DNA from: a virus
Taxonomy: Duplodnaviria; Heunggongvirae; Uroviricota; Caudoviricetes
Reading direction: 5' to 3' (one strand)
DNA: 64,000 bases
IMG/VR virus record: IMGVR_UViG_3300026549_000047
Location: 52,158 to 116,157 of that record
In this document: positions 17,026 through 44,391 of the stretch, piece by piece
Numbering within the stretch: position 1 is the stretch's first letter
Layout: each line of letters begins with the position of its first letter
Notes under the pieces: model-generated
Seen by the model: only the letters and a program-made list of their open reading frames with translations
Databases searched by the model: none
What the model was told of the DNA's origin: nothing
Program-made: the position numbers and the translations under genes

Positions 17026-17152
17026 CAGATTAGGTCATGTAATTAAGAAGAATTGCTGGAATCTTAATAAGAAATCAGCAAACATAATTAATGTTTCAAT
17101 GACTGTGTATTTTAGCAAGAAGATACAGTCTGCCCTCAAGTTGAGGCTTGAG
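17026..17152 (+). mobile_element. group I mini-intron 3 of DNA polymerase gene (about 127 nt), inserted in motif C between HD and E
   Basis: Exon 3' end CAUGAU pairs perfectly with intron IGS GUCAUG (17033-17038), including the U.G at the splice site. P element AAUUGCUGGAAUC (17050-62), Q AAAUCAGCAAAC (17075-86). R UUCAAUGACUGUGUAU (17094-109) pairs with S AAGAUACAGUCUG (17122-134), a P7 covariation GACUGU/ACAGUC. P9 hairpin CCUCAAguUGAGG. Intron ends at G17152, so the spliced reading is ...ITVHD|ENTSNTNLIPVEH, restoring HDE and a LVFEVH-like strand. Confidence 0.7.
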
Positions 17153-17551
17153 GAAAATACGTCTAATACAAATCTCATCCCTGTTGAGCATATTTTTGAT
17201 ATACTTGCTTTCTATCAGAAGAATTATACGGATTATTGTGCTCAATGTGGACCTAAAATTCGTCTACTATTTGACTTGCTTGTAGGATTTGGTTATGAAT
17301 CAGCATGTCCTCTTAAGCAGATAGATGAAAATACGATAGAATTTTCAGGTCCTGCATCTAATATAATCTTAATTTACGATAAAATCATGAAGTGTAAGCA
17401 CATAAAGGTTGAGTGTAATAAGACTAGAGAAGAGATTATGGATTCTAGAAAGATGATCACTGATCCATATTATAGAACTATTCTCGAAAGTGGATGTTCT
17501 ATAGAAAAGGATACTTCTGATATCAAGGTTCAGTTCCATAAATTAAGCTAA
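17153..17551 (+). CDS. DNA polymerase family A: exon 4 (C-terminal ~130 aa after motif C)
   Basis: ENTSNTNLIPVEHIFDILAFYQKNY...KIRLLFDLLVGFGYESA aligns with Pol I ELVFEVHKDDVDAVAKQIHQLMEN...LDVPLLVEVGSGENW, with matching spacing. The ORF track's 17021..17551 has a spurious N-terminus made of intron sequence. Confidence 0.65.
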   Translation, partial: ENTSNTNLIPVEHIFDILAFYQKNYTDYCAQCGPKIRLLFDLLVGFGYESACPLKQIDENTIEFSGPASNIILIYDKIMKCKHIKVECNKTREEIMDSRKMITDPYYRTILESGCSIEKDTSDIKVQFHKLS

Positions 17552-22414: not shown

Positions 22415-22472
22415 ACTATAAAAGAGATGATAACAATTTGTTAATAATTAACTTAAATTTTAAAAAGAAAGA

Positions 22473-25684: not shown

Positions 25685-25757
25685 GCCTTCTTAATTCAAT
25701 TGGTAGAATTTCTGATTTGTAATCAGATCGTTATTGGTTCGAGCCCAATAGAAGGCT
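25685..25757 (+). tRNA. tRNA-Thr (TGT)
   Basis: Acceptor GCCTTCT/AGAAGGC (7 bp perfect); D arm ATTCAATTGGTAGAAT; anticodon stem TCTGA/TCAGA with loop TT-TGT-AA; T arm ATTGGTTCGAGCCCAAT. Confidence 0.85.
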
Positions 25758-31252: not shown

Positions 31253-32767
31253 ATGGTAACTTACATTATTATTGGAGCAATTTTATTGCTATTTGTATTA
31301 GTTGCGTCGATGTCTTACGTCAAGGCTCCTCCCTCGTATGCCTTCGTGATCTCTGGTATCAACAAGGAACCTCGTGTGCTCATTGGTCGTGGTGGATTCC
31401 GTCTGCCATTCCTGGAGCGCCTGGATAAGGTTTATCTTGGTCAGGTCAACGTAGATGTACGGACTGAAGAAGACGTTCCCACATCTGACTTTATTAATGT
31501 AGCTGTGGACGGCTGCTGTAAGGTGCGCGTTATTCCTTCCTCAGAGGGTATTCGTCTGGCTGCAAAGAACTTCCTTAACGCGAAAGCAGAGAATATCTCT
31601 CAACAGTTGAAGGACACCTTGCAGTCTAATCTTCGTGAGATTGTAGGTACCATTGACCTGAAGTCTCTTAATCAGGATCGTGATGGTTTCGGAAAGAAGG
31701 CCGAGTTGAGTGCATCCAAAGATATGGAGAAACTCGGTATTGAGATTCTTTCATTCAATATTCAGTCTATCACTGATCGTGAAGGTCTTATCAAGGACCT
31801 GGGTGCTGACAATACAGCCCGCATTAAGAAGGACGCCGCCATCAACAAGGCTAACGCAGAACGTGACGTAGCCAAGGCAAAGGCTCTTGCTGATCGTGAG
31901 GCTAATGAAGCTCGTGTTGATGCTGATACTGCTATCGCCGAGAAACAGAATGAGCTTGCCTTGAAGAAGGCCGCCCTTAAACAGAAAGCAGATACTGCTC
32001 AGGCTGATGCCGACGCTGCCTATGCTATTCAGCAGCAGGAACAGCAGAAGACTATCAACATCAAGACCGTCGAAGCTCAGATTGAGCAGACTCGTCAGGA
32101 GAAAATTCTCTCAAAGGAGCAGATTGAAATTAAGCAGAACCAGCTGACTGCAGAGGTTGAGAGAAAGGCTGATGCTGAGAAGTATAAGACTGAGAAGGAT
32201 GCACAGGCTGCCCTTGAGACTCGTAAGCGTAAGGCTGAGGCCGAGCGTTATGAGGCAGAACAGCAGGCACAGGCTAAGAATGCTGAAGCTGAGGCTAGGA
32301 AGTATGCCATGGAGCAGGAGGCGGCTGGTATCAAAGCTAAGGGTGAAGCCGAGGCATATGCCATCCGAGAGAAAGGTAAAGCTGAAGCAGAAGCAACGGC
32401 TGCTCGTCTCGCTGCAGAGGCTGAAGGTATGGACAAGAAAGCTGAGGCTTTCAAGAAGTACAATGATGCTGCTATCACTCAGATGATCGTTGAGCAGCTC
32501 CCAGGTATGGCTGAGTCTATCGCCAAGAGCATTGCCGGTGTTGGTAGTATCAATATCTACAGCACGAATGGTGGCTCTGGTCTGGAGTCTGTGGCAGGTT
32601 CTGTGCCTGTCATGATCAAGCAGGTCATGGATACGGTGAAGAGTGCAACCGGAGTCGATATGGCTGGTGTCATTAAGGCCGGTAGCATTGAGGCTCAGAC
32701 GGACAGAAATATTAACGTAACTGGAATCCCAGGTGGTGCTCCAGCTACTCCGACGCAAGAAGAATAA
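31253..32767 (+). CDS. flotillin-like SPFH/band-7 protein (N-terminal membrane anchor, SPFH domain, long Ala/Glu/Lys-rich coiled coil)
   Basis: TM helix IIIGAILLLFVLVA; SPFH-like block VISGINKEPRVLIGRGGFRLPFLERL...; about 200 aa of EA/AEA-type coiled-coil repeats typical of flotillin FloT/YuaG. Local GC is visibly higher (about 50%) than the surrounding genome. Confidence 0.8.
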   Translation: MVTYIIIGAILLLFVLVASMSYVKAPPSYAFVISGINKEPRVLIGRGGFRLPFLERLDKVYLGQVNVDVRTEEDVPTSDFINVAVDGCCKVRVIPSSEGIRLAAKNFLNAKAENISQQLKDTLQSNLREIVGTIDLKSLNQDRDGFGKKAELSASKDMEKLGIEILSFNIQSITDREGLIKDLGADNTARIKKDAAINKANAERDVAKAKALADREANEARVDADTAIAEKQNELALKKAALKQKADTAQADADAAYAIQQQEQQKTINIKTVEAQIEQTRQEKILSKEQIEIKQNQLTAEVERKADAEKYKTEKDAQAALETRKRKAEAERYEAEQQAQAKNAEAEARKYAMEQEAAGIKAKGEAEAYAIREKGKAEAEATAARLAAEAEGMDKKAEAFKKYNDAAITQMIVEQLPGMAESIAKSIAGVGSINIYSTNGGSGLESVAGSVPVMIKQVMDTVKSATGVDMAGVIKAGSIEAQTDRNINVTGIPGGAPATPTQEE

Positions 32768-32822: not shown

Positions 32823-33456
32823 ACTCTCCTCGGTAAATCTCCTCAGCCTCACGCCTCAAATCGCGAATCCGGAAGAATCTATCAACGGTATTGTTGTAGG
32901 TAATATTATGAACTTTATAGTCCTTATCTCCTGCATCATAACTTATGATTATATCTTCTGGTCGAACAGTAGATGCCTCTAAGATGAGACGAAGCTGTTC
33001 TAAGTCCACGTACTTTTGAGTAAGACCTGGTTGAATTTCAGCCAAGGTTAAGTGTGGAGTGTAGTTTTTGAAAGTAGGTTCAATACCATACTTGGTCAGG
33101 AGTTTCTCGTTAAACTCTGAGAGTACCTTAAACCACCAAGTATCTTCCTTTAATTTCAGAACTACATAACCACTATCATTTTCAAAATTTCCTAACTCGA
33201 AGAGATCGAAGACGGGATAAACCTCTCCATAACTCTTCAAGTTGACTAATTCTGAGTTAAGTGACTCCGGAGAGTCAAACATAACATCAGTCTTATCAAT
33301 AAATCGATCACGGGCATATAGAATTGTGATGTGAGATTCAAATTCTATGCCAGTGTCCTTAAGATCTTCTGCCTCAAAAACCGTAGCAAGTGAGACAGGG
33401 GTCTGTAAGTCACAGGCGAGCATTACACAGCTCGTTACTTTCTTATCGTTTTCCAT
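32821..33456 (-). CDS. 2H phosphoesterase superfamily protein (LigT / cyclic-phosphodiesterase / Acb1-like fold)
   Basis: Two H-x-T-x motifs about 85 aa apart (HITILYA and HLTLAEI) in a 211-aa protein, the diagnostic arrangement for the 2H family. Confidence 0.6.
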   Translation of the reverse strand: MENDKKVTSCVMLACDLQTPVSLATVFEAEDLKDTGIEFESHITILYARDRFIDKTDVMFDSPESLNSELVNLKSYGEVYPVFDLFELGNFENDSGYVVLKLKEDTWWFKVLSEFNEKLLTKYGIEPTFKNYTPHLTLAEIQPGLTQKYVDLEQLRLILEASTVRPEDIIISYDAGDKDYKVHNITYNNTVDRFFRIRDLRREAEEIYRGE

Positions 33457-33464
33457 ATCTCATA

Positions 33465-33596
33465 TTACTTTTGATTTTTTAAGCGGAACTTTACCTTCAT
33501 ATCACCAAGACGGCTCTTGAGCGATGAGCCTCCCTGATTATAACCCTTTGAGTCGGTTACCGTGAGTCCCAAACCAAGCAAGTGATTTAGGAATCG
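33465..33596 (-). CDS. rpoB: RNAP beta subunit: terminal exon (tentative)
   Basis: RFLNHLLGLGLTVTDSKGYNQGG... aligns with the beta C-terminus AYTLQEMLTVKSDDVNGR. It follows an omega-G at 33597 (aaucag|cga). The track ORF 33465..33674 starts in intron sequence. Confidence 0.45.
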   Translation of the reverse strand, partial: RFLNHLLGLGLTVTDSKGYNQGGSSLKSRLGDMKVKFRLKNQK

Positions 33597-34583
33597 CTGA
33601 TTGTCTTCGGCTGCGGTATCACCTCGGGCTGAGTCAAGAAAGTCTTTAGCATTTCTCGAAAGATATGCTGACAATTCCCGTAAAATTCTCTACACTATAT
33701 GTAGAGACAGACTATATCTTCAGCAATGAAAGCTGACTTGTACATAGTCGTTGTGTATAGCTTTAATTTTCTGGCAAAAATCTATATCCACTTTCAGGGT
33801 GTTTAGTTATTAAGCTTTTAACTACTTTTCCTGATAATCCATTAGCTTCCCCTGCTTTTGCTAAGCTTGGAAATATTCGACCTAACGGATCAACTACCTT
33901 TTGGAGCTTTCTTCCTTTTCTTATACTACTAAGCTTAGCTTTTTGTTCATCAGACATTGGTACACCTTTGTTCCATGCCTTTTGTCCTTTGTGGCCTTCA
34001 GATTGATTTAATAAGTAGTCTATATCTCTTTTTCGATTTTTCATATAATTAGACATTTTTTGTCTTTGGCTATTACTTACAATTCTTTTTCTATTAGCTT
34101 CTGCAATCTTCTGTCCGAAACCTTCAGGCATCTTTCTACCTCTATGAGCCTTTGCTGCCTGTTCTCTATAATATGCTATTTCTCTGGTAGAAAATCGTTT
34201 CTCACCTTCTCTACCACCTTTTTTATTAAGAGCCATAGCATTTACAGCCTCTGCTAATCCGGGGCACTTTGGATATATTTCATGTAGTAGTTTATGGACC
34301 AATACATGTTCTTTCGCTGTTAAGTATACAGTATTAGATACATCATCTGTTCCTCCACAGCATTTAGGTATAATATGATGAAATTCATAATATTCCCCAC
34401 ATACTTTTTCTCGATTCTTGGCTCTATTTATTATACTATCGTGCCAAGTTTTATATTTATAATCTGGATTTTTATACTGCATCATCTTTTTATTATATGC
34501 AATATGTTCAGGTCTAGATTTATTTGCCATCTGTTTAATTTTATTTTAACTATATTACTGGTTTTGTTTTTACAGTTCCAGTA
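33597..34583 (-). mobile_element. group I intron (beta intron 5) carrying an HNH homing endonuclease ORF
   Basis: The 5' splice site is about 50 nt upstream of HNH ORF 33763..34530, whose 3' end overlaps the P/Q region. R ACACAACGACUAUG (33757-33744), P8 CAGCuuucauuGCUG, S GAUAUAGUCUG (33735-33725), P9 UCUCUACAuauagUGUAGAGA. It sits between beta motifs GQKIGEIIWFHKPENY and RFLNHLL. Confidence 0.55.
33763..34530 (-). CDS. intron-encoded HNH homing endonuclease with NUMOD-like repeats
   Basis: YYEFHHIIPKCCGGTDDVSNTVYLTAKEHVLVHKLLHE is an HNH motif. Repeated basic ...EANRKR...SDEQKAKLSSIRKGRK... modules follow. Confidence 0.75.
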   Translation of the reverse strand: MANKSRPEHIAYNKKMMQYKNPDYKYKTWHDSIINRAKNREKVCGEYYEFHHIIPKCCGGTDDVSNTVYLTAKEHVLVHKLLHEIYPKCPGLAEAVNAMALNKKGGREGEKRFSTREIAYYREQAAKAHRGRKMPEGFGQKIAEANRKRIVSNSQRQKMSNYMKNRKRDIDYLLNQSEGHKGQKAWNKGVPMSDEQKAKLSSIRKGRKLQKVVDPLGRIFPSLAKAGEANGLSGKVVKSLITKHPESGYRFLPEN

Positions 34584-34694
34584 ATTCTCAGGTTTATGAA
34601 ACCAAATAATTTCACCGATCTTTTGACCCGTTTGTCTATAACGACCACGGCCCATGATAGGATCATCTTTAAACTCATTCACATCTACGCCAAA
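34584..34694 (-). CDS. rpoB: RNAP beta subunit: 37-codon micro-exon between two introns
   Basis: Encodes FGVDVNEFKDDPIMGRGRYRQTGQKIGEIIWFHKPEN, matching the universally conserved beta C-terminal block [25 protein letters not shown]. It is hidden inside track ORF 34482..34724. Confidence 0.5.
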
Positions 34695-34867
34695 CATCGA
34701 TGATGTTACCTTGTTACTGTACATCTATCATTCGCTAAATTATTTTAGTGCTAAGACTATATCACCTAACAGTACATAGTCGTTGTGGAATTTTATTCTA
34801 GCTGATTAGACTTAATCTTTCCAGCTATTAAACTGATTTTACATCCCCATGAATGTAATCTAGGGAT
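34695..34867 (-). mobile_element. group I mini-intron (beta intron 4, about 173 nt, ORF-less)
   Basis: Follows exon ...VGYMSLIELYH, which parallels beta VGYMYMLKLNHL. P UAAUAGCUGGAAAG, Q AAUCAGCUAG, R CCACAACGACUAUG (34790-34777), S GAUAUAGUCUUAG (34764-34752), P9 CUAAAuaauUUAG. An omega-G at 34695 is followed by the micro-exon. Confidence 0.55.
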
Positions 34868-35452
34868 ATGGTACAATTCTATGAGGGACATATAACCCAC
34901 ACTAAGTGGTTTATCTACCTCAATGTATTTACCTTCCATGTTTTTCTTGATGATTTCAAATTCGTCCTCGGGGAGGTTTTCTTTAAGCTCATCAAGATCA
35001 GCAACAGTATTTGTTGGAATGAGTATTTTTGATTGTGGTGTAACACCAAGTTCCTGTGCCCACTGATCCACCAGCTGCGGAGTAAACTTAGTGCTATACG
35101 AACCGACGTTCATGTAATAGACGTCCTCAAGCTTATGAGTATTGTGATATTCAATAAACTCGTCGAGGGTCATATTATCAAAACGGCCGGGATAATATTT
35201 TTGTACGAGAGGAAGAATAGTATTTCGCTCAGTTTTACTACCATTCTTACGTTCTTCTACGATGTCATGAATACGAACACAACAGGTAGAGAGAAGTTGT
35301 TCCATGTTCACGCTGGGGATTTTACGATTGATTGTACTGTATGGGTTCATGACCACCTCGACTACTCGTTTTTTCCCAGTTCCATTCTCTACCATGATCG
35401 GCATCTGGCTGTCTGGGAGAATTTTGCTTATAACTCCCTTACCTCCATCAAG
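34868..35452 (-). CDS. rpoB: RNAP beta subunit: exon (LDGGKGVISKI...NPYS...VGYMSLIELYH)
   Basis: Upstream extension of track ORF 34793..35404: LDGGKGVISKILPDSQMPIMVENGTGKKRVVEVVMNPYSTINRKIPS matches beta [42 protein letters not shown]. The track's tail after ...LYHI is intron read-through. Confidence 0.7.
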
Positions 35453-35596
35453 TCAATTACCAAACCTTTGTTTAGTATTAAGACTATATCTTCGTAAATA
35501 CATATAGTCGTTGGAGACATTCCTATCTTGCTGATTTGAACTTAATATCGTCCCAGCAATTAATACTTTTAACAGACCTGGAATTTAATCTGTTTG
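35453..35596 (-). mobile_element. group I mini-intron (beta intron 3, about 144 nt, ORF-less) inside the [13 protein letters not shown] catalytic-region motif
   Basis: Flanking exons join as ...IKRTNLMIG | LDGGKGVISKI, the same length as E. coli [15 protein letters not shown]. The upstream frame is closed by TGA at 35453-55. The intron holds all four cores: P AUUGCUGGGA, Q AAAUCAGCAAG, R CCAACGACUAUAUG (35516-35503), S GAUAUAGUCUU (35490-35480), then P9 ACAAAggUUUGG. Confidence 0.65.
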
Positions 35597-36881
35597 TCAC
35601 CTTACTACCAATCATCAGGTTAGTTCTCTTGATCAGTCTCACTCTAATCGTATAAACCACCTTGTAATTTTTGTCTGACAGACTTATCGGATCAAGCCTA
35701 TCAGCTGCGATATACTCGGGATATCTATCATAAATAACCTTTCTATCCTTGTTCTTTTCGTATTCACTTATCACATCCTGTGACGTATGAGAGAAAGAGA
35801 GATCAGGTCGCTTAACACCTTTACCTGGCGTACGAACAACTTTATTCTCCTGGATCATAACATCACTTACATAAGCTTCGTCAATATTGGGAGGAACTAT
35901 TAAGGAATTTTCGATCGTATACTCAGAGAAATCTCTTCCCTCACCAAACAAGCTACCAAGCTTATCCTGGAGTGCTTTATTAATTTCGTCCAACCTAACA
36001 GCTTTGTACACTGTCAAGACAGGATCTTTACTTTTTACTTTAGTACCGATGGGAGCAATCCACTTAAGAGCTTCTGTTGACTTAACGTCATACATTAGAT
36101 CTATAATGGAGAAGCTACACATCTTCTTTGCAAATGATTCGCTAACAACGAGAGCATCCTCATTAACATAGCCAAACATTGCATGGAATAGAACTAGTGC
36201 GTTTAGTCCTGCCTTATACGTATCAGCTTCCAAGTTAACTGCACCCGTAATAACGTCACCTTTCTTAACCTTCTGGCCAACTTTGACCTTAGGTTCAATA
36301 AAGACGTCGACATCATTAACGGATTGAATTGCAGTACGTCTGGGAACTTCAACCGTATCTTTATCCGGAAGTTCAATAATAACAGAATCCTCCGTTATCT
36401 CTTTCACTACTCCCTCATCTTTTGTAAACTTTTCATTCAGAACGTTGTCCTTGAGCTCTTCTACGTTGCCAGTATCAACCAATGGTCTTTCGGCACCGGG
36501 GAGAGGTATAGATTGTTTGAGCATCGAGCTACCCATGTGAATTCGCACACTATCTGTATAGTTAACGAATGGAATTCTTCGTACCTCTTCCGATAAACGA
36601 TAATCGGGGTGAAGATCCACTAACTCAACTTCCTCCACGGGAACACGTTTTCTTTTCAATCTATGTTTAACCTCTACCATACCCTCAGCATCTGGCTTAA
36701 GAGTATTAGTCTCGTAATCAACATACTCACTAGCACATACTTTTTTGTTTAGATAGTCGAAATATGGAATTGTTATTTTCACAAAATCTGGACTATATAC
36801 GTCGAAAAGTATGTCAGTGTCCGTTACATGTACGGATTTCGTCAAGGCATTTTGTTTTCCAACATTTTGATTTATCGGTGT
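35597..36881 (-). CDS. rpoB: RNAP beta subunit: central exon (fork/active-site region)
   Basis: ...SVHVTDTDILFDVYSPDF...FVNYTDSVRIHMGSSMLKQSIPLPGAERPLVDTGNVE...NALVLFHAMFGYVNEDALVVSESFAKK...IKRTNLMIG matches beta ...[23 protein letters not shown]...[24 protein letters not shown]...GDKMAG. The frame opens right after the UAG at 36884-82, which contains the omega-G. Confidence 0.7.
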
Positions 36882-37985
36882 CTAAATTATCTAAGTATCA
36901 ACTACTTAGAATAGACTATATCTTTAGAAATTGTATATAGTCGTTGAATAATTTTAACTAAGAATATTTAATCTATATATGAAAACCCTTTTTCGTTATT
37001 TTTAGCCCATCTTCCTATAACCACTGGACTATGATTAGTTGCTTGCCCTGCTTCTTTAACAGAGTCGTAGATAGTACCATCAGGGCCTTGAATTTTTCTT
37101 ATACAAGATATTACGCTAGTATATTTTCCGGTATATTTAAACCCTTTCTCCGGATGTCTGTTTATCCAGTTTCTTAAAATTCCTACAGTAATATTGTTCT
37201 CTCTAGCACAGCTAGCTAAAGTAGGATATATGGTTCCATCAGGTCCCTCAATTTCTTTTCCTTGAGGATGTCCGGAATTCCTGTTTGAGATCGTTGTTTT
37301 AAATTTTTCATCTCTAGGTCCAGTAGATTTTCCTAATTTGGCAAGTGATTGCTTTTTCCGGGCTTCATCACTAGCTGATGTACCAAAAGTGCGGTTCTCG
37401 ACACCATATTTAATATGTTTCTTCCACTTTTCATATCCTTCTTTTGACATTGGGCCGCGCTTCTTTCCTTTAGTAGATTTTGAGATATTTTTACCAATAT
37501 TTGAAGCGATTAATTTTCTTTTTTCATGCCACAGCTCTCTATAGTATGCTGCAGTTGATACGGAGATTTTAATGTTCTTTCCCAAAGCCTCTGCTACTCT
37601 AAACATATAATCTACGGCACATGCTAATTTCGCATTATCTGGGTAACATCTTTGTAATAACATATGAGCAATTATATGCTCTTTTGCAGTTAATAAAACA
37701 TAATTAGACTCTTCATCTTTACCTCCCATACACTTTGGCAGAATATGATGTCTCTCCGTGTAATAATCTAATCTTGTTTTATCTAACCCTCTATGTAGGG
37801 ATTTATTTATCAAATTATTATATGTATTATAATACCAAACCCTATTATAATACTCTATCTCTTCTATTGACATTACTTAGTTTATTTTAATTATTGCTGA
37901 TCTGACTTTTGCCTTTCCAGCAATTAATTTCAATTTAGGAGCCTACCACCTAAACTTAAGCTCCAACACAAATCAAGTCGGAAAA
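36882..37985 (-). mobile_element. group I intron (beta intron 2) with HNH homing endonuclease ORF in P6
   Basis: P2 hairpin GGAGC...GCUCC; P AAUUAAUUGCUGGAAAG (37935-37918); Q AGAUCAGCAAU (37905-37895); HNH ORF 36968..37873; R UUCAACGACUAUAUAC (36950-36938); S AGAUAUAGUCU (36924-36914); P9 UCUAAGUAguugaUACUUAGA; omega-G in ...aauuuag|aca at 36882. The 5' boundary is approximate. Confidence 0.5.
36968..37873 (-). CDS. intron-encoded HNH homing endonuclease with duplicated C-terminal DNA-binding modules
   Basis: RHHILPKCMGGKDEESNYVLLTAKEHIIAHMLLQRCYP is an HNH motif. The module GPDGTIY...A...N occurs twice (IEGPDGTIYPTLASCARENNI and IQGPDGTIYDSVKEAGQATNH). Confidence 0.75.
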   Translation of the reverse strand: MSIEEIEYYNRVWYYNTYNNLINKSLHRGLDKTRLDYYTERHHILPKCMGGKDEESNYVLLTAKEHIIAHMLLQRCYPDNAKLACAVDYMFRVAEALGKNIKISVSTAAYYRELWHEKRKLIASNIGKNISKSTKGKKRGPMSKEGYEKWKKHIKYGVENRTFGTSASDEARKKQSLAKLGKSTGPRDEKFKTTISNRNSGHPQGKEIEGPDGTIYPTLASCARENNITVGILRNWINRHPEKGFKYTGKYTSVISCIRKIQGPDGTIYDSVKEAGQATNHSPVVIGRWAKNNEKGFSYID

Positions 37986-38057
37986 CGACGAATTGTAAGC
38001 TACACTTTGAGGTATTTGGATCTTACCAGTTAAGCTCTGCAAATTTCATTTTATTTC

Positions 38058-38206
38058 TCTCAATTTTCTTGAGACCTTTTAGACTATATCACCTTTGTTC
38101 TATCATATAGTCGTTGAAACTTTTGTCTGCCGATTGTAGTTTTTCTCTTTCCGGCAATTATACAGAAAGCCACAAATCTTTCTATGGCATTAATACCCGG
38201 GCTTAT
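38058..38206 (-). mobile_element. group I mini-intron (beta intron 1, about 150 nt, ORF-less)
   Basis: P2 AGAAAGauuuguggCUUUCU; P UAAUUGCCGGAAAG (38160-38147), close to the consensus AAUUGCGGGAAAG; Q AAUCGGCAGAC (38134-38124); R GUUUCAACGACUAUAUG (38118-38105); S GAUAUAGUCU (38090-38081); P9 CUCAAgaaaaUUGAG. The track ORF 38084..39058 reads through it: P encodes IIAGKR, R encodes FQRLYD, and the stop lies inside S. A short micro-exon is expected between about 37986 and 38057. Confidence 0.5.
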
Positions 38207-39058
38207 CTGCAGATCACTTCCTCCCTTACTAGCATCGCTACTGCCTTTCCAATATCTAACGCACAGCATTGTCAAGACATTAACTTGCTCTTGTAGTTTA
38301 TTATAACGGGACCAATAATTCATGATCTTCTTTCTGGTTCCCCAGTAGTTTCTCTTATTGGATCCGTTAAACAAATAGTTCATAAACCCACTTGGAATGG
38401 ACTCGATTCTCTTATCAATCACCAAATCCTTCACACGATCATCTCCAAAAGCCAGACACTCTTCAATCAAGCGCTTTGTTATGAACTCAGGTTTGTAGTC
38501 TAAGTCTAACTTAATTTCCAGCTTTTTAATCTGACGGTCAGTGAGTCTAAGGGCCTCTCTTTCAAGACCCGTCACATTGTCGATTTCATCCAGAGTATAT
38601 TCTCGAACTCGCTCCTGCAAGCCAAGCTCTGGATTAGTTCGTTTAATCTTGAGGACACCTTTCCTGATATCATAGATACGATCATAGTCAAAGTTGATAT
38701 CATACCTTCCAGTTCCAGACATATTGATTCTACAATCGTAGTCATTGCCCAGAGTATTGGTTGCAATACGATATGCTCCCTCGATAATGAAAGCACCATC
38801 AATCTCTTTGGGGACCTCAAATTCAGAAAACCGAACCTCATCATCATAGTTTATGGTATACTCCAAGATAACCTTGTGAGTAGCCGTCAATCCATTCTCA
38901 ATATAGTAAGATGCGGGACGAGGAGTTTCCTCTTCGATATGCCAATTCAAGTTTGTTAACTTGTACTTGGGATTATACGCATCAATTTCACTACCAAAGA
39001 ATCGATCTACAATAAGTTTTGCTCCTGTGTTTCTGAAATACTGATTAAAGTTACTCAT
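38207..39058 (-). CDS. rpoB: RNAP beta subunit: first exon (N-terminal about 284 aa)
   Basis: ...GDDRVKDLVIDKRIESIPSGFMNYLFNGSN... parallels the beta [26 protein letters not shown] block. The start ATG directly follows the TAA of the upstream gene. Confidence 0.7.
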
Positions 39059-39701: not shown

Positions 39702-40550
39702 TTATTTACTGTCAAGTTTATCATTCAGGAGAAGGTTCAATACCGTACTTGTCATGGTATCGCCTTCCAAATTAAGTTCACCCTTGAGGGCACGACCAAT
39801 AATTCTGGACGACCAACCATATGACAAAGTTGTAAAGAAGGACTTACGATTAAGAATAGCATTCTGGGTTCCTTGATATTCAATCTCCTCAACTTTATTT
39901 GTCTTGGGATCAACTACCATGTTAGTAAGACCAGAGAATACCATTTCAACAATTTCCTCTTGCATGTCACTAGGACTTACAATACCGCTCTTCTGAAAGT
40001 CATTACTTGTTAATGAATAATATTGATTTCTAAATATATTAAATGCCCCGTTAATATCTCCGGGCAGGTCAGCCGTAACCTGTCTCATGTTCACAACTCC
40101 TGAACAGAAGCGTTGGTATTTCTTGATCTCTGTGCCGTCAGGGAAGTAGTATATTGACTCGGGGGAGTATGCATACTGACGTCCGCCAATGAACACTTCA
40201 ATCTCACCACGTTTGTTTTCGGTGTAGTGAATAGTTCCAGCTTCATACGCGTAACAATCGGCGACAGTTACCGTATCTTTCTCGAAATATTTCGTGCCTG
40301 AGCTACCCTTAGCATTCATTAATCGAATAACTGAGTTTAGCTTATATACTGGAGATGTAGTATGATAAGCTGTTCCTAAAAGTTCTCCCGCTGCATATTT
40401 CTGCTTGGGAATACCAACCCAGTTGTCTGGTCTTGGATAACGAAGCTCTCCACCTCGTACTTTAAGAACAAGCCACCTACCATCTTCTCTCAGTTCACAA
40501 TCTTTAGGAGCATATAGATTTCCTGAATTATCGATGACTCTTTCATGACC
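39702..40550 (-). CDS. rpoC: RNAP beta' subunit: last exon (trigger-loop insertion, TL C-terminal half, C-terminal clamp region)
   Basis: GHERV...LPGDINGAFNIFRNQY resembles TL2 ITGGLPRVADLFEAR. ...SFFTTLSYGWSSRIIGRALKGELNLEG resembles FQETTRVLTEAA..GKRDEL.GLKENVI.G. It follows an omega-G at 40551 after the P9 hairpin AAUCCUAAAgagaUUUAGGAU. Confidence 0.7.
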   Translation of the reverse strand, partial: GHERVIDNSGNLYAPKDCELREDGRWLVLKVRGGELRYPRPDNWVGIPKQKYAAGELLGTAYHTTSPVYKLNSVIRLMNAKGSSGTKYFEKDTVTVADCYAYEAGTIHYTENKRGEIEVFIGGRQYAYSPESIYYFPDGTEIKKYQRFCSGVVNMRQVTADLPGDINGAFNIFRNQYYSLTSNDFQKSGIVSPSDMQEEIVEMVFSGLTNMVVDPKTNKVEEIEYQGTQNAILNRKSFFTTLSYGWSSRIIGRALKGELNLEGDTMTSTVLNLLLNDKLDSK

Positions 40551-41705
40551 CAAAATTATCCTAAATCTCTTTAGGATTTAGACTATATCTTATTAAATAA
40601 CATATAGTCGTTGAATTATATACTTAAAAGTTTTAGCTGTTCTTGTATAAATGATAATATCTCTTCTTTCTTCTCAATCAAAAATCCCTCGTTTCCTATA
40701 ACAATAAATTCTTTAAATTCCATTTTAACGCTGTATTCTAATTCTGCTATCTTCTCTCTAGTAGATTTTGCTAGTACAGTACTTTTTCCATAGCTATATC
40801 CATGATACCCTCTTAAGTCAATACGATTACTAGTATTTCTACTAACACCCAGCTTAAATGCATTAGAATTTTCTAATTCTACTAAATAATATTCACAAAT
40901 ATCAAATAGATCTCCTTTGTTTAGGAACATTTTTCTGTCGATAGCTATTAATTCATCAACACTAAATGTTTTATCTACCGGCAAACCAATATCTATTGCC
41001 GCCTTATCATAGGAATCTCTTGTTGTTTGTTTAAGTTTCTCAATGTTAGTCTCTGCTTTCGGAATCCAAGGTTTCCTAACATCATCAGGTGAAAATATAC
41101 TATTTCCATCTGCTATTTGTTTCTTTGCATTAATACTGAGCTTTTTGCGCCACTCTTTTGATCTTCTGTTTGCCTTCTGAAGACCAGTTACTCCTCTTTT
41201 ATAATTTTCTCTCTGAGCAACTTGAGTAGCAGCATTTGCTAGGTGGTCTTTACAACCATCCATAAAATAGTTCATCCATTTTCCATTTTTAATTGGAACC
41301 AAAGATCTAAATACTCTTGGTTGGTTACATTTTTCTCCAGTATATGGATTTTTATAAGAACATATAGGTATTTTAGACTCATCCCCTTCAAATACTACTA
41401 TTATATAGTACTCAAATTCTGTAAGTCCGTACTTATTAAATAAGTATTGTTTTCGTTGAGAAGTAGAGAGTTCTTTACAGTCATCTAGTTGATCTAATAT
41501 TTGAAAATATTTAGATCGAGGACTAACCAGGTTAGTCCTACTGTATTCAATTCTTCCAGGACAAGACACGATATACTCTTTTTCTTTATAGATAACTTTC
41601 TTTTTCTTCATAAATTTTAATTTAAAATATTCTTTAAGTATCTCTAAACTGCTGGTAATGATATTTTCAATTCCAGCAATAATTTATTTTTATACACAGC
41701 TAATC
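40551..41705 (-). mobile_element. group I intron (beta' intron 4) with endonuclease-like ORF in P6, inserted in the trigger loop
   Basis: Upstream exon ends ...TTQSILGLKHGF(D), a TL1 GEPGTQLTMRTFHIGG-like block. P AAUUAUUGCUGGAAUUG (41672-41661); Q AUUACCAGCAG; ORF 40616..41611; R UUCAACGACUAUAUG (40620-40604); S GAUAUAGUCU (40590-40577). Confidence 0.55.
40616..41611 (-). CDS. intron-encoded putative homing endonuclease (family not assignable; basic NUMOD-like central region)
   Basis: 331 aa ORF filling the P6 position of the intron. Lys/Arg-rich helix-like modules (KANRRSKEWRKKLSINAKKQ). No HNH, GIY or LAGLIDADG motif recognised. Confidence 0.5.
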   Translation of the reverse strand: MKKKKVIYKEKEYIVSCPGRIEYSRTNLVSPRSKYFQILDQLDDCKELSTSQRKQYLFNKYGLTEFEYYIIVVFEGDESKIPICSYKNPYTGEKCNQPRVFRSLVPIKNGKWMNYFMDGCKDHLANAATQVAQRENYKRGVTGLQKANRRSKEWRKKLSINAKKQIADGNSIFSPDDVRKPWIPKAETNIEKLKQTTRDSYDKAAIDIGLPVDKTFSVDELIAIDRKMFLNKGDLFDICEYYLVELENSNAFKLGVSRNTSNRIDLRGYHGYSYGKSTVLAKSTREKIAELEYSVKMEFKEFIVIGNEGFLIEKKEEILSFIQEQLKLLSI

Positions 41706-42047
41706 AAAACCGTGTTTTAAGCCTAAGATTGATTGCGTAGTTGCCTCCGAGAAGGACGAACCTGCAGCCAAACCTAAACCACTGCCATCTGGTGTATCTG
41801 TTTTCAGGAAATTTTTGCTAAGTAAGTCCGGAGTTATGATATCGAGGTCGCCTTCTCTTTTCATAACTATTGATCTTACCGGTACTAAGTCATCCTCATT
41901 CTGACGTACAACATCACCATATACTTTGCCATTAGGCGCAGTACGGCCCGTTGCTACGTATCGGGGAATAAGGAGTCCCTCATTATTTGGATCACTGCCC
42001 TCTGCACTGAACTTATAATTGTTCAAAAGGAACGTGATCTGTCGGTT
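41706..42047 (-). CDS. rpoC: RNAP beta' subunit: exon 4 (region between bridge helix and trigger loop)
   Basis: NRQITFLLNNYKFSAEGSD...GLGLAAGSSFSEATTQSILGLKHGF; the C-terminal part matches the TL1 consensus E.GTQ(L/S)(T/I)(M/L)..H.G. Confidence 0.6.
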
Positions 42048-42389
42048 CATATATCCACCCAAGGGTCAAGACCGAGAATTTATATTTCCCGGTCGGGTGG
42101 TAATAAGTTCTGTATTCGTTCATACAGATTAAGACTATACCATGACTCAACACCATAGAGCCTCTTAAGTAATAGTCGTTGATCTTATTACTTACAAGTT
42201 TCTTCTTTTCCTTCCTTCCCACATTCATCACTAGAGGGAGGAACAGCTTTCTGGACGATGTCGTTATACTGAGCTAGCATTTGGCCAATCCCAGAAAATA
42301 TCATTCCAAGAGCTGTCAAGATCTTCACTACTTGATTCATAACAAGTTGCTGATTTTAATTATAAATTTTTCTTCCAGCAATATTTTTA
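42048..42389 (-). mobile_element. group I intron (beta' intron 3, about 342 nt, ORF-less) directly after the bridge helix
   Basis: Upstream exon ends ...YISHAIENRSLQSIKQSGVQYLLRVRHAQN, the bridge helix [35 protein letters not shown]. P AUAUUGCUGGAAG (42384-42371); Q AAUCAGCAAC (42355-42346); R AUCAACGACUAUUAC (42190-42176); S GGUAUAGUCUUAAU (42146-42133); P9 CUGUAUgaacgaAUACAG; P9.1 GACCGggaaauauaaauucUCGGUC; omega-G at 42048. Confidence 0.6.
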
Positions 42390-43206
42390 GATTTTGTGCA
42401 TGGCGCACCCTTAGTAAATATTGTACGCCACTTTGCTTGATACTTTGTAAGCTGCGGTTCTCAATCGCATGTGAAATGTACTCGCTTTCACTTAGACCAC
42501 CAAGTAAGCTGCCTCTATTAACTATAGGCTTCTCATCCACACCCGAGATAATGAACTGAGGTGCGTTGATAGCCACAATAGAAGCCAACTTCACTCGAGC
42601 AGCACGGTCTAATTCTGCTTTTAGGTCAGAACTAAACTCGTTCTCCACAGTCTTCAAGTATCCATTATACTTTTCAGAGATCAACATAAGTTTCTGCTTA
42701 TCTGTTAATTCAGACGAGTCAGCAATCTTTCTAATCTCCTTGTAAGTATCATTATCGGTGTTAGCATATAGTGTAGAGTAGTCAAACGTAACAACACCAG
42801 TACGTGTGACATACTTCAAGCCAAGTCGCTGAAGCTTGTTAGCTTTCTCTACCCAATCTTCATATCCATATAGATATGACATCAACCTTCCAGCTGATTT
42901 TGCGTTAATGCGCTCATACGGACCAATCACGGGCTTACCACCTACTTTAATTTCATCAAGATCGGCTTCAATGATCTTTGAAATTCTGAGTCGTCCATAT
43001 GTAGTAATCTTCGATTGATAATCAACGCCACCTAGTTTTCCTGTAAAGACAATAGGAGTTCCTGCTTTTATTTTACCATCTACCTCAACATCTTTTAAGA
43101 GCTGAGCATAGTCGGTATAATAATGCTTAGGATTCTTCATGTCGTCAGGACTATCCGGAGTATACTCCGAAATATTAGCTAAGCCATTACGTAGGTCTAT
43201 ATAAAA
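42390..43206 (-). CDS. rpoC: RNAP beta' subunit: exon 3 (about 272 aa, through F-loop and bridge helix)
   Basis: FYIDLRNGLANISEYTPDSPDD...TTYGRLRISKII...SAGRLMSYLYGYEDWVEKANKLQRLGLKYVTRTGVVTFDYSTLY...GLSESEYISHAIENRSL parallels beta' LSPANGEPIIVPSQD...TTVGRAILWMIV...[31 protein letters not shown]...[18 protein letters not shown]. Confidence 0.7.
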
Positions 43207-44391
43207 CATATATAGACTAGACTATATCATAAGTTCTCATGAATAGTCGTTGAATTAATTTAATGTAGTTTAACAGAAATTATACATAGTAGTCGTATAG
43301 ATACAGAGATCTATTTAATCTTTTACTGTCTCTTCTCTCATAAAACTTTCTTTTGATATATAGATCATCTTCCGTCAAAGTTATATATTTAACGTTGTTC
43401 TTTCTACACCACTTTTTTCCAGCCAACCTTTTATTAATAACCTTCTCCGTGTTTAATAAATTTTTAGCTTTAATTTCCACCATAAATTTATCACCAGATA
43501 AAGTAGTTACTAAGAAGTCTGGATAATAATAATGTGATTTGTCCCCTATTTTATATTTTATAGGATCTGGTATAGACAAATCAACTATATAGTGACTCGA
43601 TTCTATAATCGTTAAAAAGTCTTTTTCATATGAAGATAAGTAACCTATCTCAGTATTAAACTTAGTTGAGACAAATTTTCCAGATTCATAATAGTTTCTA
43701 GATTTTATTTTTCCTTTTTTGGATTTGGAAATTTTTTCTTTTGCCTCTTCAGATAATTTAAAATGGTATCCCCTAGGTCTTTTTAACCGCTGTTCTTCTG
43801 TCAGTTTCTTACCTTTTTTAGCAAGACTTAAATTTTTCTTATTCTCTTCTGACAAAGGTTTCCCTTTTAGTTTAATAGAGTTAAGTTCTGCAGTATGTCT
43901 ATACCTACAATTCTTGCAATAAGTCTTATATCCGGGATATCTATTTTTCTTAGGATCCCTAATAAACAAAAACATACACTCTTTCCCACAAAACTGACAT
44001 TTAGGTCTATCATTTACACTACTTATACCTAAAACTACTAAATCGAAATATATTTGTATATTTACACCTTCTTTTAAATTCTTAAGTAACCAGGGTCCTT
44101 TTGCCCAGGCATCTTTATTGTTTTTATTAATAAAAGATGGTATAAAATATTCCCAAAATCTTCCCGATTTCCTACAATAATTCTCTATTCCAAGCCCAAC
44201 TCCATTAAATGGGTTTAACTTAGAGTAATATTCATAAAGATCATTCATAAAATTACACTACATTTGTTATTAACTGCTGATCTGTTTTAATACTTTCCAG
44301 CAATTTGTAAGATTTTATAACCCCTAGGTTTTTCAAGGGTTTCGTGATTAAACTCGAAGATATTTTTCAGATTCTTTTTATAAAGCTTGTT
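43207..44391 (-). mobile_element. group I intron (beta' intron 2) with PD-(D/E)xK-type homing endonuclease ORF in P6
   Basis: P AAAUUGCUGGAAAG (44290-44277); Q AACAGAUCAGCAG (44265-44253); ORF 43280..44248; R UUCAACGACUAUUC (43258-43243); S GAUAUAGUCUAGUCUAUAUAUG (43233-43207), ending in the omega-G at 43207 that precedes exon FYIDLRNG. The joined exons ...AKMSPR|FYIDLRNGLANIS have the same length as beta' MMSTNNILSPANG. Confidence 0.6.
43280..44248 (-). CDS. intron-encoded homing endonuclease: Zn-finger + NUMOD3-like repeats + C-terminal PD-(D/E)xK nuclease domain
   Basis: CQFCGKEC...CKNCRYRH zinc finger. Repeats ...SEENKKNLSLAKKGKKLTEEQRLKR... and SEEAKEKISKSKKGK. C-terminus YYYPDFLV...KFMVEIKAK is a canonical PD...(D/E)xK core. 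Confidence 0.6.
   Translation of the reverse strand: MNDLYEYYSKLNPFNGVGLGIENYCRKSGRFWEYFIPSFINKNNKDAWAKGPWLLKNLKEGVNIQIYFDLVVLGISSVNDRPKCQFCGKECMFLFIRDPKKNRYPGYKTYCKNCRYRHTAELNSIKLKGKPLSEENKKNLSLAKKGKKLTEEQRLKRPRGYHFKLSEEAKEKISKSKKGKIKSRNYYESGKFVSTKFNTEIGYLSSYEKDFLTIIESSHYIVDLSIPDPIKYKIGDKSHYYYPDFLVTTLSGDKFMVEIKAKNLLNTEKVINKRLAGKKWCRKNNVKYITLTEDDLYIKRKFYERRDSKRLNRSLYLYDYYV

What the first reader, a model, noticed from the sequence alone, without database searches (positions are those of the whole stretch)
33597..34867. Tandem intron pairs separated by micro-exons: mini-intron + endonuclease intron flanking a 37-codon exon that encodes [11 protein letters not shown]
In beta the arrangement is: exon ...VGYMSLIELYH, then a mini-intron at 34695-34867, then a 37-codon micro-exon FGVDVNEFKDDPIMGRGRYRQTGQKIGEIIWFHKPEN, then a 987-nt intron with an HNH ORF, then the exon RFLNHLLGLGLTVTD. 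The micro-exon is the universally conserved beta motif PLGG...[17 protein letters not shown]. A similar pair surrounds a second micro-exon near 37986-38057, with a mini-intron at 38058-38206 and an HNH intron at 36882-37985. Each pair looks like core-HEG-core; I first read this as a twin-ribozyme intron. The arrangement could reflect intron insertion beside resident introns, or a mechanism (collapse or co-mobility) specific to this lineage.
Basis: inference. Interest (0 to 1): 0.8.

Follow-up and report, generated by a model that had tools for sequence, protein, structure and literature searches.

The report
Tandem miniature group I introns in phage rpoB
A jumbo-phage RNA polymerase beta gene is cut by five separate self-splicing group I introns, two pairs of which leave real 88- and 116-base exons between them, and three of the five are only 137-139 bases long because they lack two helices (P2 and P8) normally counted as part of the ribozyme.

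Summary
The minus-strand beta gene (39058-33465) has six exons and five group I introns. Splicing them out gives an open 1057-aa protein that aligns without gaps at every junction to more than 100 intronless homologues. Both pairs are a mini-intron followed by an endonuclease-bearing intron: 38183-38047 + 37958-36882, and 34861-34725 + 34608-33679. Each intron has its own P1 (U.G), P10 and terminal G. The micro-exons (88 and 116 nt) encode conserved residues, so a twin-ribozyme or single-composite reading is rejected.

Two close pairs among five sites is not beyond chance within this window (P = 0.13). Related huge phages show the same kind of pair, built from different introns at insertion sites a few bases away. 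This points to adjacent homing hot spots in conserved beta motifs. Intron-rich RNA polymerase genes in jumbo phages are already published.

The less expected result is structural. The four ORF-less introns in the window (136-139 nt) keep the P, Q, R and S elements, the P3/P7 pseudoknot, and P4-P6 and P9. They have no P2 and no P8. Covariation in 28 relatives supports this core. I found no published description of a P8-less group I intron.

The parts
38184..39058 (-). beta exon 1 (aa 1-291 plus 2 nt)
   Evidence: Open frame from the ATG at 39058. Junction confirmed by gap-free alignment to intronless homologues.
38047..38183 (-). Intron b1: 137-nt ORF-less group I intron without P2 and P8
   Evidence: P1 GCCAU|/GUGGC with U.G. 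P10 AAAUU/GAUUU lies directly 5' of the guide. P AATTGCCGGAAAG, Q AATCGGCAG, R CAACGACTAT, S GATATAGTCT. The R-S spacer is 19 nt with no hairpin. P9 is TCTCAA/TTGAGA and the intron ends in G. Covariance model: 64.9 bits.
37959..38046 (-). Micro-exon 2 (88 nt: 1 nt plus 29 codons, NLQSLTGKIQIPQSVAYNSSFSDLICVGA)
   Evidence: Aligns without gaps to all homologues, mean identity 62%.
36882..37958 (-). Intron b2: 1077-nt group I intron with the endonuclease ORF in the P6 loop; also lacks P8
   Evidence: P1 GGAGCU|/GGCUCC. P3 AAAUUG/CAAUUU. P6 AAUAAUU/AAUUAUU encloses the ORF. The R-S spacer is 17 nt and the intron ends in G.
36968..37873 (-). Homing endonuclease ORF of intron b2 (301 aa)
   Evidence: phrog_655 'homing endonuclease' E = 1.9e-33; phrog_12434 'HNH endonuclease' E = 3.7e-9. 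No Pfam hit. 30% identical to the b5 ORF.
35588..36881 (-). beta exon 3
35449..35587 (-). Intron b3: 139-nt ORF-less group I intron without P2 and P8 (not paired with another intron)
   Evidence: P1 AACAGAU|/GUCUGUU. P10 UGGAG/UUCCA. The R-S spacer is 16 nt. J8/7-P7 reads AAGAUAUAGUC and the intron ends in G. Covariance model: 73.4 bits.
34862..35448 (-). beta exon 4 (ends ...LIELYHIP)
34725..34861 (-).
   Evidence: P1 AUAUCCCU|/GGGGAUGU (8 bp, U.G at the splice site). P10 AUG/CAU. P3 CAGU/ACUG. P4 UAGCUGG/UCAGCUA, with a compensatory A-U. P6 GAAU/AUUC. The R-S spacer is 15 nt and the intron ends in G. The 3' splice site was fixed by the homologue alignment HIP[M/T/S]YSNKVT. Covariance model: 73.4 bits.
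34609..34724 (-). Micro-exon 5 (116 nt; MYSNKVTSSMFGVDVNEFKDDPIMGRGRYRQTGQKIGE plus 2 nt of Met)
   Evidence: Mean identity 72% to 26 intronless homologues.
33679..34608 (-). Intron b5: 930-nt group I intron with the endonuclease ORF in the P6 loop; retains a P8 hairpin (CAGC-UUUCAUU-GCUG)
   Evidence: P1 GUGAAAU|/GUUUCAU. P4 UUACUGG/CCAGUAA. R CACAACGACTAT, S GATATAGTCT. The intron ends in G. Exon junction GQKIGEM|ELSAY.
33763..34530 (-). Homing endonuclease ORF of intron b5 (255 aa)
   Evidence: phrog_655 E = 1.8e-38; phrog_12434 'HNH endonuclease' E = 1.3e-8.
33465..33678 (-). beta exon 6 (ELSAYLSRNAKDF... to the stop codon)
17026..17161 (+). Fourth miniature intron of the same class (136 nt), in the PolA-like gene at ...TVHD|SNTN...
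   Evidence: P1 CAUGAU|/GUCAUG. P10 CUAAU/AUUAG. P7 carries a compensatory change, GACUGU/ACAGUC. The R-S spacer is 18 nt. Best covariance-model score, 81.4 bits.

Best explanation
Each 'pair' is two complete, separately spliced group I introns in the RNA polymerase beta gene of a huge phage. In every intron the 5' exon ends in U, which is paired to a G of the intron's own guide sequence (P1). The first bases of the next exon pair beside it (P10), and the intron ends in G. So each intron should excise by the usual two transesterifications (inferred, not tested), leaving the 88-nt and 116-nt micro-exons in the mRNA.

The downstream member of each pair carries an HNH-type homing endonuclease gene in its P6 loop. 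The upstream member is an ORF-less miniature of the same intron family. It is reduced to P1, P3, P4, P5, P6, P7 and P9, with no P2 and no P8.

The closeness of the two introns is best explained by geography, not by a joint mechanism. The conserved motifs of beta lie 30-40 codons apart, and each is a hot spot into which different mobile introns have repeatedly inserted. The small ORF-less introns are gained and lost by local gene conversion.
For: Shown:
- One open 1057-aa ORF after removing the five introns.
- Gap-free junctions against intronless homologues.
- Conserved micro-exon peptides.
- P1, P10 and terminal G for each intron.
- Classical P/Q/R/S elements.
- Covariation for P3 (pseudoknot), P4, P5, P6 and P7 in 28 P8-less relatives: 89% of cells paired, against 69.5% in shuffles and 32-44% with slid partners; 18 pairs change on both sides.
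- P3 cognate strands pair at -3.65 kcal/mol against -1.26 for non-cognate strands, p = 1e-10.
- The R-S spacers of the short class cannot form a hairpin (mean MFE -0.02). Paralogues with longer spacers do (-5.0), including the same sequence with and without the P8 hairpin.
- Intron sites lie in conserved patches (p = 0.017).

Hot spots: among 73 related beta loci, introns cluster at about 10 regions. The insertion sites are displaced by 3-23 nt from those of the window and sometimes hold a different group I family. Tandem small introns with micro-exons of about 30 codons recur there.

Independent gain or loss: a 208-nt ORF-less intron is present or absent on an identical background, flanked by 14 and 6 mismatches and none elsewhere.

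A viable cultured phage (MarsHill) has a 155-nt P8-less intron of this family in gyrB. Splicing of small introns in related Jug phages was confirmed by metatranscriptomes for 37 of 76 (PMC12880540).
Against: - No RNA data exist for this sequence, so splicing and self-splicing are inferred.
- Rfam's group I model does not detect any of the introns, even at E <= 10.
- P5 is only 2-4 bp, and P3 of the PolA mini-intron is weak (-1.3 kcal/mol).
- In relatives the upstream small intron is never found without a downstream intron: 10/10, 13/13 and 3/3 loci in three regions. Pure geography does not predict this, although those loci are closely related genomes and not independent.
Confidence: 0.62

Rival explanations
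1. Hitch-hiking or trans-homing. The ORF-less mini-intron depends on its neighbour. The HNH endonuclease encoded in the downstream intron cuts intronless alleles, and the mini-intron 88-116 bp upstream is carried along in the conversion tract, or its own insertion site is what the enzyme cleaves. On this view the pairs are functional units of co-mobility.
For: In 73 related beta loci the upstream small intron occurs only together with a downstream intron, and mostly with an endonuclease-sized one:
- A with endonuclease-sized B: 10/10, against 0/46 without.
- D with endonuclease-sized F: 12/13.
- G with endonuclease-sized H: 2/3.

In all three regions the small intron is the upstream partner. 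ORF-less introns do move by gene conversion, which needs a nuclease supplied in trans. There is precedent in collaborative or trans homing: T4 mobE with the nrdB intron, and cyanophage psbA (PMC2790892, PMC3984707).
Against: - The loci are closely related genomes, so the association may be shared descent.
- In L159 versus L189 the small intron was exchanged without the neighbour: the tract ends about 20-25 nt before the identical 1128-nt intron.
- 17 loci carry the endonuclease intron without the small one.
- Intron b3 and the PolA mini-intron in the window have no endonuclease intron within 400 nt.
- No cleavage site is known for these enzymes.
Confidence: 0.28
2. Single composite (twin-ribozyme-like) intron. 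The two cores and the ORF are excised as one unit, and the 'micro-exon' is intron sequence.
For: The superficial order is core - ORF - core. Rfam gives no independent support for either core.
Against: - The micro-exons encode 29 and 38 residues that align gap-free with every intronless homologue at 62-72% identity. These include invariant residues such as G981, Q982 and E986.
- Removing them would delete essential beta motifs.
- Each core has its own guide sequence matching its own flanking exons.
- The ORF lies inside P6 of the downstream intron, after the micro-exon.
Confidence: 0.02
3. The mini-introns are decayed remnants that no longer self-splice. Either the gene is dead in this assembly, or removal needs a protein or trans-acting RNA helper.
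For: P8 is counted as part of the catalytic domain (PMC3984707). P5 and P6 are minimal, and Rfam gives no hit.
Against: - Four such introns sit in two essential genes whose exons are otherwise intact and open.
- The family has at least 36 distinct P8-less members with compensatory changes.
- The catalytic strands are retained: J4/5 GAAA, J8/7 AAGAU, the P7 helix GACUA/UAGUC, and the terminal G.
- A cultured, viable phage carries one in gyrB.
- A helper requirement cannot be excluded.
Confidence: 0.08

Closest known systems
Intron-split RNA polymerase genes of jumbo phages (Bacillus phage AR9; Staphylococcus phages MarsHill, Madawaska and Machias; gut 'Jug' phages)
   Same: Multisubunit RNAP, DNA polymerase and gyrase genes are interrupted by several group I introns, some of which carry homing endonucleases. 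Intron number and position vary between close relatives (bioRxiv 10.1101/2020.12.14.422802; PMC12880540). The beta protein here is 52-77% identical to homologues on 200-400 kb viral contigs. MarsHill-like phages carry introns of the same sequence family.
   Different: This genome has no near-identical record among deposited phages. Its GC content of about 0.38 is higher than the 27-30% reported for Jug phages. Those papers report the introns by model hits or protein alignment. They do not describe their secondary structure, the loss of P8, or tandem pairs with micro-exons.
Classical phage group I introns (T4 td, nrdB and sunY; SPO1; Twort), subgroup IA2
   Same: P, Q, R and S elements almost identical to the classical consensus, the ORF placed in a peripheral loop, and insertion at conserved sites of nucleotide-metabolism or polymerase genes. 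The consensus is from my own knowledge; the general features are in PMC3984707.
   Different: The miniatures have no P2, no P7.1/P7.2 and no P8, and are 136-139 nt long. Canonical ORF-less cores are about 250 nt or more (my own knowledge).
Azoarcus pre-tRNA-Ile intron (205 nt) and engineered sunY mini-ribozymes
   Same: Compact group I ribozymes lacking peripheral domains. Azoarcus is described as a 'compact 205 nt intron' (PMC13168695).
   Different: Azoarcus retains P2 and P8. The introns here are about 65 nt shorter and natural. The sunY derivatives are man-made (my own knowledge).
Collaborative or trans homing (T4 mobE with the nrdB intron; cyanophage psbA intron with F-CphI)
   Same: An ORF-less or defunct intron is mobilised by an endonuclease encoded nearby, with co-conversion of flanking exon sequence (PMC2790892, PMC3984707). 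Conversion tracts flank ORF-less introns in relatives.
   Different: Here the candidate helper would be encoded inside a second intron of the same gene, 88-116 bp downstream. No cleavage data exist, and dependence is not shown.
Twin-ribozyme introns (Didymium or Naegleria GIR1 + endonuclease gene + GIR2)
   Same: Two group I-like cores and an endonuclease gene in close succession.
   Different: In twin-ribozyme introns everything lies inside one intron of nuclear rDNA, and GIR1 is a branching ribozyme without P1 (my own knowledge). Here a conserved coding exon separates two ordinary splicing ribozymes.

Membership tests
Group I self-splicing intron | 5' exon ends in U paired with G of an internal guide sequence (P1) | tested here: met
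   All five beta introns and the PolA mini-intron: GCCAU/GUGGC, GGAGCU/GGCUCC, AACAGAU/GUCUGUU, AUAUCCCU/GGGGAUGU, GUGAAAU/GUUUCAU and CAUGAU/GUCAUG. The minimum-free-energy folds recover P1.
Group I self-splicing intron | Intron ends in G, and the 3' exon pairs next to the guide (P10) | tested here: met
   Terminal G in all six. P10 of 3-5 bp adjacent to or within 3 nt of the P1 guide.
Group I self-splicing intron | Conserved P/Q (P4) and R/S (P7) elements, with the guanosine-binding helix | tested here: met
   AATTGCTGGAAAG / AATCAGCAA / TTCAACGACTAT / GATATAGTCT. There are 10 exact S elements in the window against about 8 one-mismatch matches expected by chance. P4 is 96% paired with 4 pairs changed on both sides. 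P7 is 100% paired with an A-U to G-C switch in 4 sequences.
Group I self-splicing intron | P3-P7 pseudoknot | tested here: met
   All six P3 pairs change on both sides, and 69% of cells are paired despite alignment slippage. Cognate strands pair at -3.65 kcal/mol against -1.26 for non-cognate strands, p = 1e-10.
Group I self-splicing intron | P4-P5-P6 scaffold domain | tested here: met
   P6 is 97% paired, with all 4 pairs covarying. P5 is short (2-4 bp) and 76% paired.
Group I self-splicing intron | P8 hairpin between P3' and J8/7 (part of the P3/P9 catalytic domain, PMC3984707) | tested here: not met
   The R-S spacers in b4, b3, b2, the PolA mini-intron and b1 are 15, 16, 17, 18 and 19 nt. 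They are filled by P3' plus J8/7 and have no hairpin potential. Intron b5 does have P8.
Group I self-splicing intron | Match to the curated Rfam model (RF00028) | tested here: not met
   No hit at the gathering score over the whole window, nor at E <= 10 over 33400-38400.
Group I self-splicing intron | Guanosine-dependent self-splicing activity | not testable with these tools
   Needs in vitro transcription and splicing, or RNA-seq.
Subgroup IA2 | Extra helices P7.1/P7.2 between P3' and P8 | tested here: not met
   There is no room in the 15-19-nt spacers. The long R-S regions of the first two PolA introns (about 70-80 nt) could hold them, but this was not analysed.
Twin-ribozyme intron | Two ribozyme cores and the endonuclease gene inside one excised intron, with no exon between them | tested here: not met
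   The intervening 88-nt and 116-nt segments are conserved coding sequence.
HNH homing endonuclease | HNH catalytic motif or family-profile match | tested here: inconclusive
   PHROG families annotated as homing or HNH endonuclease match at E = 1e-33 to 1e-38 and 1e-8 to 1e-9. An HH..P..GG...N......EH..H pattern is visible. No Pfam family matches at E <= 0.01.
Collaborative / trans homing | ORF-less intron transferred by gene conversion with co-converted flanks | tested here: met
   Seen in relatives only: L159/L189, L171/L182 and L187/L157. There is no near-identical relative of the window itself.
Collaborative / trans homing | A nuclease encoded elsewhere cleaves at or near the ORF-less intron's insertion site | not testable with these tools
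   Requires cleavage mapping.

The most novel reading that the evidence does not exclude
The 136-139-nt introns would be the smallest natural group I ribozymes with a complete active site. They would splice on their own without P2 and P8, which would show that P8 is dispensable for the catalytic domain. The neighbouring intron's endonuclease would spread them in trans as obligate hitch-hikers.
Probability: 0.3. Interest if true: 0.78.

Novelty: new variant of a known kind. Interest (0 to 1): 0.55.

Why it matters
- Annotation. Gene callers break such genes into fragments, and Rfam misses every one of the 12 introns in this window. Huge-phage polymerases are therefore systematically mis-annotated.
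- Ribozyme structure. A natural series of the same intron with and without P8, down to 136 nt, is a ready-made deletion experiment on the catalytic domain. It is also a possible source of very compact ribozymes for applications such as RNA circularisation.
- Mobile-element ecology. The beta gene is a dense record of repeated intron invasion at a few conserved motifs, with visible conversion tracts. This makes it a good system to test whether ORF-less introns borrow a neighbour's endonuclease.

Tried and rejected
- Rfam scans at the gathering score and at E <= 10 found only three tRNAs and noise.
- Megablast of the region against deposited phages found nothing. tblastn found one distant hit, Cobetia phage Carin-5.
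- Pfam found no family for the two beta-intron ORFs. PHROGs did.
- An alternative 3' splice site for b4 (34722, giving HIP|YSNK) was rejected, because homologues have HIPxYSNK and P10 fits 34725.
- Local duplication of the neighbour as the origin of the mini-introns was not pursued. The cores of partners are no more alike than those of other introns by eye. In relatives the upstream partner can belong to another group I family.
- Four literature searches for a P8-less or 'smallest' group I intron returned nothing relevant. This is absence of evidence in one library only. Degenerate small rDNA insertions in lichen fungi have been called group I remnants (my own recollection, not checked).
- The supplementary tables of the Jug-phage paper, which list the spliced introns, are not held.
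- Two failed on a reading-frame error (35, 36).
Full report
**What the region is.**
The window has the composition and gene content of a large phage. GC is about 0.38 and strand skew switches near 33 kb. There are three tRNA genes and no near-identical deposited phage.

The minus strand from 39058 to 33465 encodes a bacterial-type RNA polymerase beta subunit, and 46471-39702 encodes beta'. Both are fragmented, as is a PolA-like gene on the plus strand.

The fragments are separated by segments that share four short sequences, in order:
- AATTGCTGGAAAG
- AATCAGCAA
- TTCAACGACTAT
- GATATAGTCT

These are the classical P, Q, R and S elements of group I introns. The consensus is from my own knowledge; their roles are described in PMC3984707. 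The S element occurs exactly ten times, with 22 matches at one mismatch or fewer against 7.9 expected.

**Check of the observation.**
I placed splice sites by three rules:
- a U at the end of the 5' exon, paired to a G of a guide sequence inside the intron;
- a terminal G on the intron;
- an uninterrupted reading frame.

This gives six exons and five introns.

| Element | Coordinates | Length |
|---|---|---|
| Exon 1 | 39058-38184 | |
| Intron b1 | 38183-38047 | 137 nt |
| Exon 2 (micro-exon) | 38046-37959 | 88 nt |
| Intron b2 | 37958-36882 | 1077 nt |
| Exon 3 | 36881-35588 | |
| Intron b3 | 35587-35449 | 139 nt |
| Exon 4 | 35448-34862 | |
| Intron b4 | 34861-34725 | 137 nt |
| Exon 5 (micro-exon) | 34724-34609 | 116 nt |
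| Intron b5 | 34608-33679 | 930 nt |
| Exon 6 | 33678-33465 | |

The joined exons are 3174 nt and encode one open frame of 1057 aa. A protein search returned more than 100 full-length homologues of 1040-1066 aa, up to 76% identical, most covering 100% of the query. Several lie on contigs of 240-400 kb. At all five junctions the model aligns without a gap.

An automatic search for the best T...G splice pair recovered the same five introns. For b4, the homologues (HIP-x-YSNKVT) decide between two candidate 3' sites.

The boundaries were off by 6-57 nt, however:
- its micro-exon peptide ran into intron b5 ('IIWFHKPEN');
- the conserved GEM|E motif is split by b5 rather than contained in the micro-exon.

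**Are they separate introns?**
Yes. Each intron has its own guide:

| Intron | P1 (exon / guide) |
|---|---|
| b1 | GCCAU / GUGGC |
| b2 | GGAGCU / GGCUCC |
| b3 | AACAGAU / GUCUGUU |
| b4 | AUAUCCCU / GGGGAUGU |
| b5 | GUGAAAU / GUUUCAU |

Each also has a P10 of 3-5 bp with the first bases of its own 3' exon. Minimum-free-energy folds with 10 nt of exon recover P1, P4/P5, P6, P7 and P9.

The micro-exon peptides are 62% and 72% identical on average to 26 intronless homologues, against 65% overall. They include invariant residues. A composite or twin-ribozyme intron would delete them, so I reject that reading.

The ORFs in b2 and b5 lie inside the P6 loop. They match PHROG families annotated as homing or HNH endonucleases (E = 1e-33 and 1e-38) and are 30% identical to each other. 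Pfam gives no hit.

**The unexpected part: the miniature architecture.**
There is no P8, and P1 runs directly into P3, so there is no P2. Intron b2 also lacks P8. Intron b5 has it.

I parsed 94 distinct ORF-less introns of the family:
- 36 have spacers of 21 nt or less and cannot form a hairpin (mean MFE -0.02 kcal/mol);
- 57 have spacers of 26 nt or more and do form one (mean -5.0 kcal/mol);
- the remaining one has a 23-nt spacer and falls in neither class.

Some are the same sequence with or without the hairpin: GTGAACAACTAAAG[ATGAAATTATCTTTAG]AAGAT.

On an alignment of 28 P8-less members, the structure P3 (pseudoknot) + P4 + P5 + P6 + P7 gives:
- 89% of cells paired, against 69.5% in shuffles and 32-44% with slid partners;
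- 18 of 26 pairs changing on both sides.

P3 strands pair better with their own partner than with partners from other introns (-3.65 against -1.26 kcal/mol, p = 1e-10).

A covariance model built on this core finds exactly the four miniatures in the window at 65-81 bits, plus the two halves of the ORF-bearing introns.

Among all beta-gene introns sampled, the window's are the shortest. The next are 146, 164 and 167 nt.

Rfam's group I model sees none of them. The review I consulted counts P8 as part of the catalytic domain and mentions only P2 as sometimes absent. Four searches found no description of a P8-less group I intron.

Function is inferred, on three grounds:
- four such introns sit in two essential, otherwise intact genes;
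- a cultured phage (MarsHill) has a 155-nt P8-less relative splitting the gyrB Toprim motif;
- small introns of related Jug phages were shown to splice in metatranscriptomes, 37 of 76.

**Why pairs?**
Within the window alone the arrangement is not improbable. Two or more gaps of 39 codons or fewer among five random sites occur in 12.7% of trials. The five sites lie in conserved patches (p = 0.017).

I mapped introns in 73 related beta loci. Twenty-five are intronless. The rest carry one to five introns, clustered in about ten regions.

The window's sites are not the relatives' sites:
- The relatives' intron near b1 sits 23 nt upstream and belongs to another group I family, with an AAATTCGGTGAA...GTAACGAATAAAGACTTAC core.
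- Near b2 there are three different sites within about 25 nt.
- Near b4 the relatives' intron (174-175 nt, with P8) sits 6 nt upstream.
- Near b5 there are three sites within about 10 nt.

In the region of b3, relatives have two small introns of different families flanking a micro-exon of about 30 codons. So tandem introns with micro-exons are a recurrent outcome in this gene, built from different parts. This is what adjacent hot spots in conserved motifs would produce. The preference of introns for conserved sites is established (PMC2814812).

**Mobility.**
Near-identical relatives that differ by one small ORF-less intron show a tight patch of exon mismatches around it and none elsewhere.

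- For the 208-nt intron of L159 against L189, there are 14 mismatches within about 85 nt upstream and 6 within about 70 nt downstream. There are none in the other roughly 2.4 kb, including the identical 1128-nt endonuclease intron that begins about 90 nt downstream.
- L171 against L182 repeats the pattern, and L187 against L157 shows it for another site.

These are conversion tracts. Small introns are therefore gained or lost next to a resident intron by local recombination.

A nuclease must start such events. The neighbour's endonuclease is a candidate, because in relatives the upstream small intron is never seen without a downstream intron:
- A with endonuclease-sized B: 10/10;
- D with endonuclease-sized F: 12/13;
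- G with endonuclease-sized H: 2/3.

The nominal Fisher p values are 1e-5, 6e-11 and 0.003. These loci are close relatives, so the tests overstate the evidence. In addition, 17 loci have the endonuclease intron alone, and two of the window's four miniatures have no endonuclease intron nearby. I therefore rank hitch-hiking, in the sense of collaborative or trans homing (PMC2790892, PMC3984707), as a live rival and not the main explanation.

**Comparison with what is known, and verdict.**
Multiple group I introns in jumbo-phage RNA polymerase, DNA polymerase and gyrase genes are published for AR9 and the MarsHill-like phages. For gut Jug phages, 2513 introns averaging about 206 nt are reported.

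The tandem arrangement is thus a further instance of a known phenomenon, and its proximity needs no special mechanism. What appears not to have been described is the P2- and P8-less core of 136-139 nt. I file the finding as a new variant of a known kind, of moderate interest, with the ribozyme architecture as the part most worth an experiment.

Noticed in passing
window 39702-46471 (minus strand): The beta' gene carries four more introns of the same family. My tentative boundaries are 45328-44602 (727 nt; 188-aa ORF with no family hit), 44335-43190 (1146 nt; ORF with TnsA-like endonuclease and NUMOD3 hits), 42424-42058 (367 nt; only a 50-aa ORF) and 41708-40551 (1158 nt; 331-aa ORF with no hit). 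Removing them gives an open 1123-aa frame. The junctions were not checked against homologues.
   Followed up: partly
window 14600-17161 (plus strand): The PolA-like gene has three introns. The first is about 14640-16110 and has an ORF matching homing or HNH endonuclease PHROGs. The second is ORF-less, about 16340-16625, with a long R-S region that could hold P7.1/P7.2/P8. The third is the 136-nt miniature at 17026-17161, which splits ...TVHD|S.... Boundaries of the first two are approximate.
   Followed up: partly
window, whole: Rfam release 15 detects none of the 12 group I introns in the window, not even those with a full set of helices. Scans that rely on it will miss this intron family.
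   Followed up: yes
L146 7864-8081, L159 7864-8071, L148 9523-9714, L167 (E region): Relatives carry a second, unrelated small group I family (180-220 nt; core AAATTCGGTGAA ... AATACCGA ... GTAACGAATAAAGACTTAC). It occupies sites a few bases from those used by the window's family. Its structure was not analysed.
   Followed up: no
L159 vs L189; L171 vs L182; L187 vs L157; L155 vs L158: Exon mismatches cluster tightly around introns that are present in one genome and absent in its near-identical relative. These are conversion tracts of roughly 25-350 nt. In L155/L158 the intron sits at a junction between about 10% divergent and identical sequence.
   Followed up: yes
L193 (Staphylococcus phage MarsHill MW248466) 1468-1622: A cultured phage has a 155-nt P8-less intron of this family splitting gyrB at ...SDAD|DDGLH... 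It is annotated only as a joined CDS 'predicted based on alignment'. Machias has a P8-bearing relative in the beta' mid-domain gene.
   Followed up: partly
L003, L006, L009, L020, L023, L041 and others (viral contigs): Many 360-400 kb contigs show two P8-less R-S cores about 285 nt apart. This would be a tandem pair of two miniature introns with an exon of about 140 nt between them, in a gene I did not identify.
   Followed up: no
L043 4522-4880 and window 17026: The PolA ...VHD S... site is used 3 nt apart in two phages (HD|S in the window, HDS| in L043). This is another example of insertion sites 'wobbling' within a hot spot.
   Followed up: no
window 22343-22415, 23751-23822, 25685-25757 (plus strand): Three tRNA genes at 54-64 bits. 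Anticodons were not determined.
   Followed up: no
L001 14302-15975: In the closest intronless relative, an IMPDH-like gene carries Hint and intein-splicing domain hits. Inteins therefore accompany the introns in this phage group, as reported for Jug and MarsHill-like phages.
   Followed up: no
window 31253-32767 (plus strand): A 504-aa ORF has a long Ala/Glu/Lys-rich coiled-coil-like tail. The composition creates several long spurious ORFs on both strands. It was not analysed.
   Followed up: no
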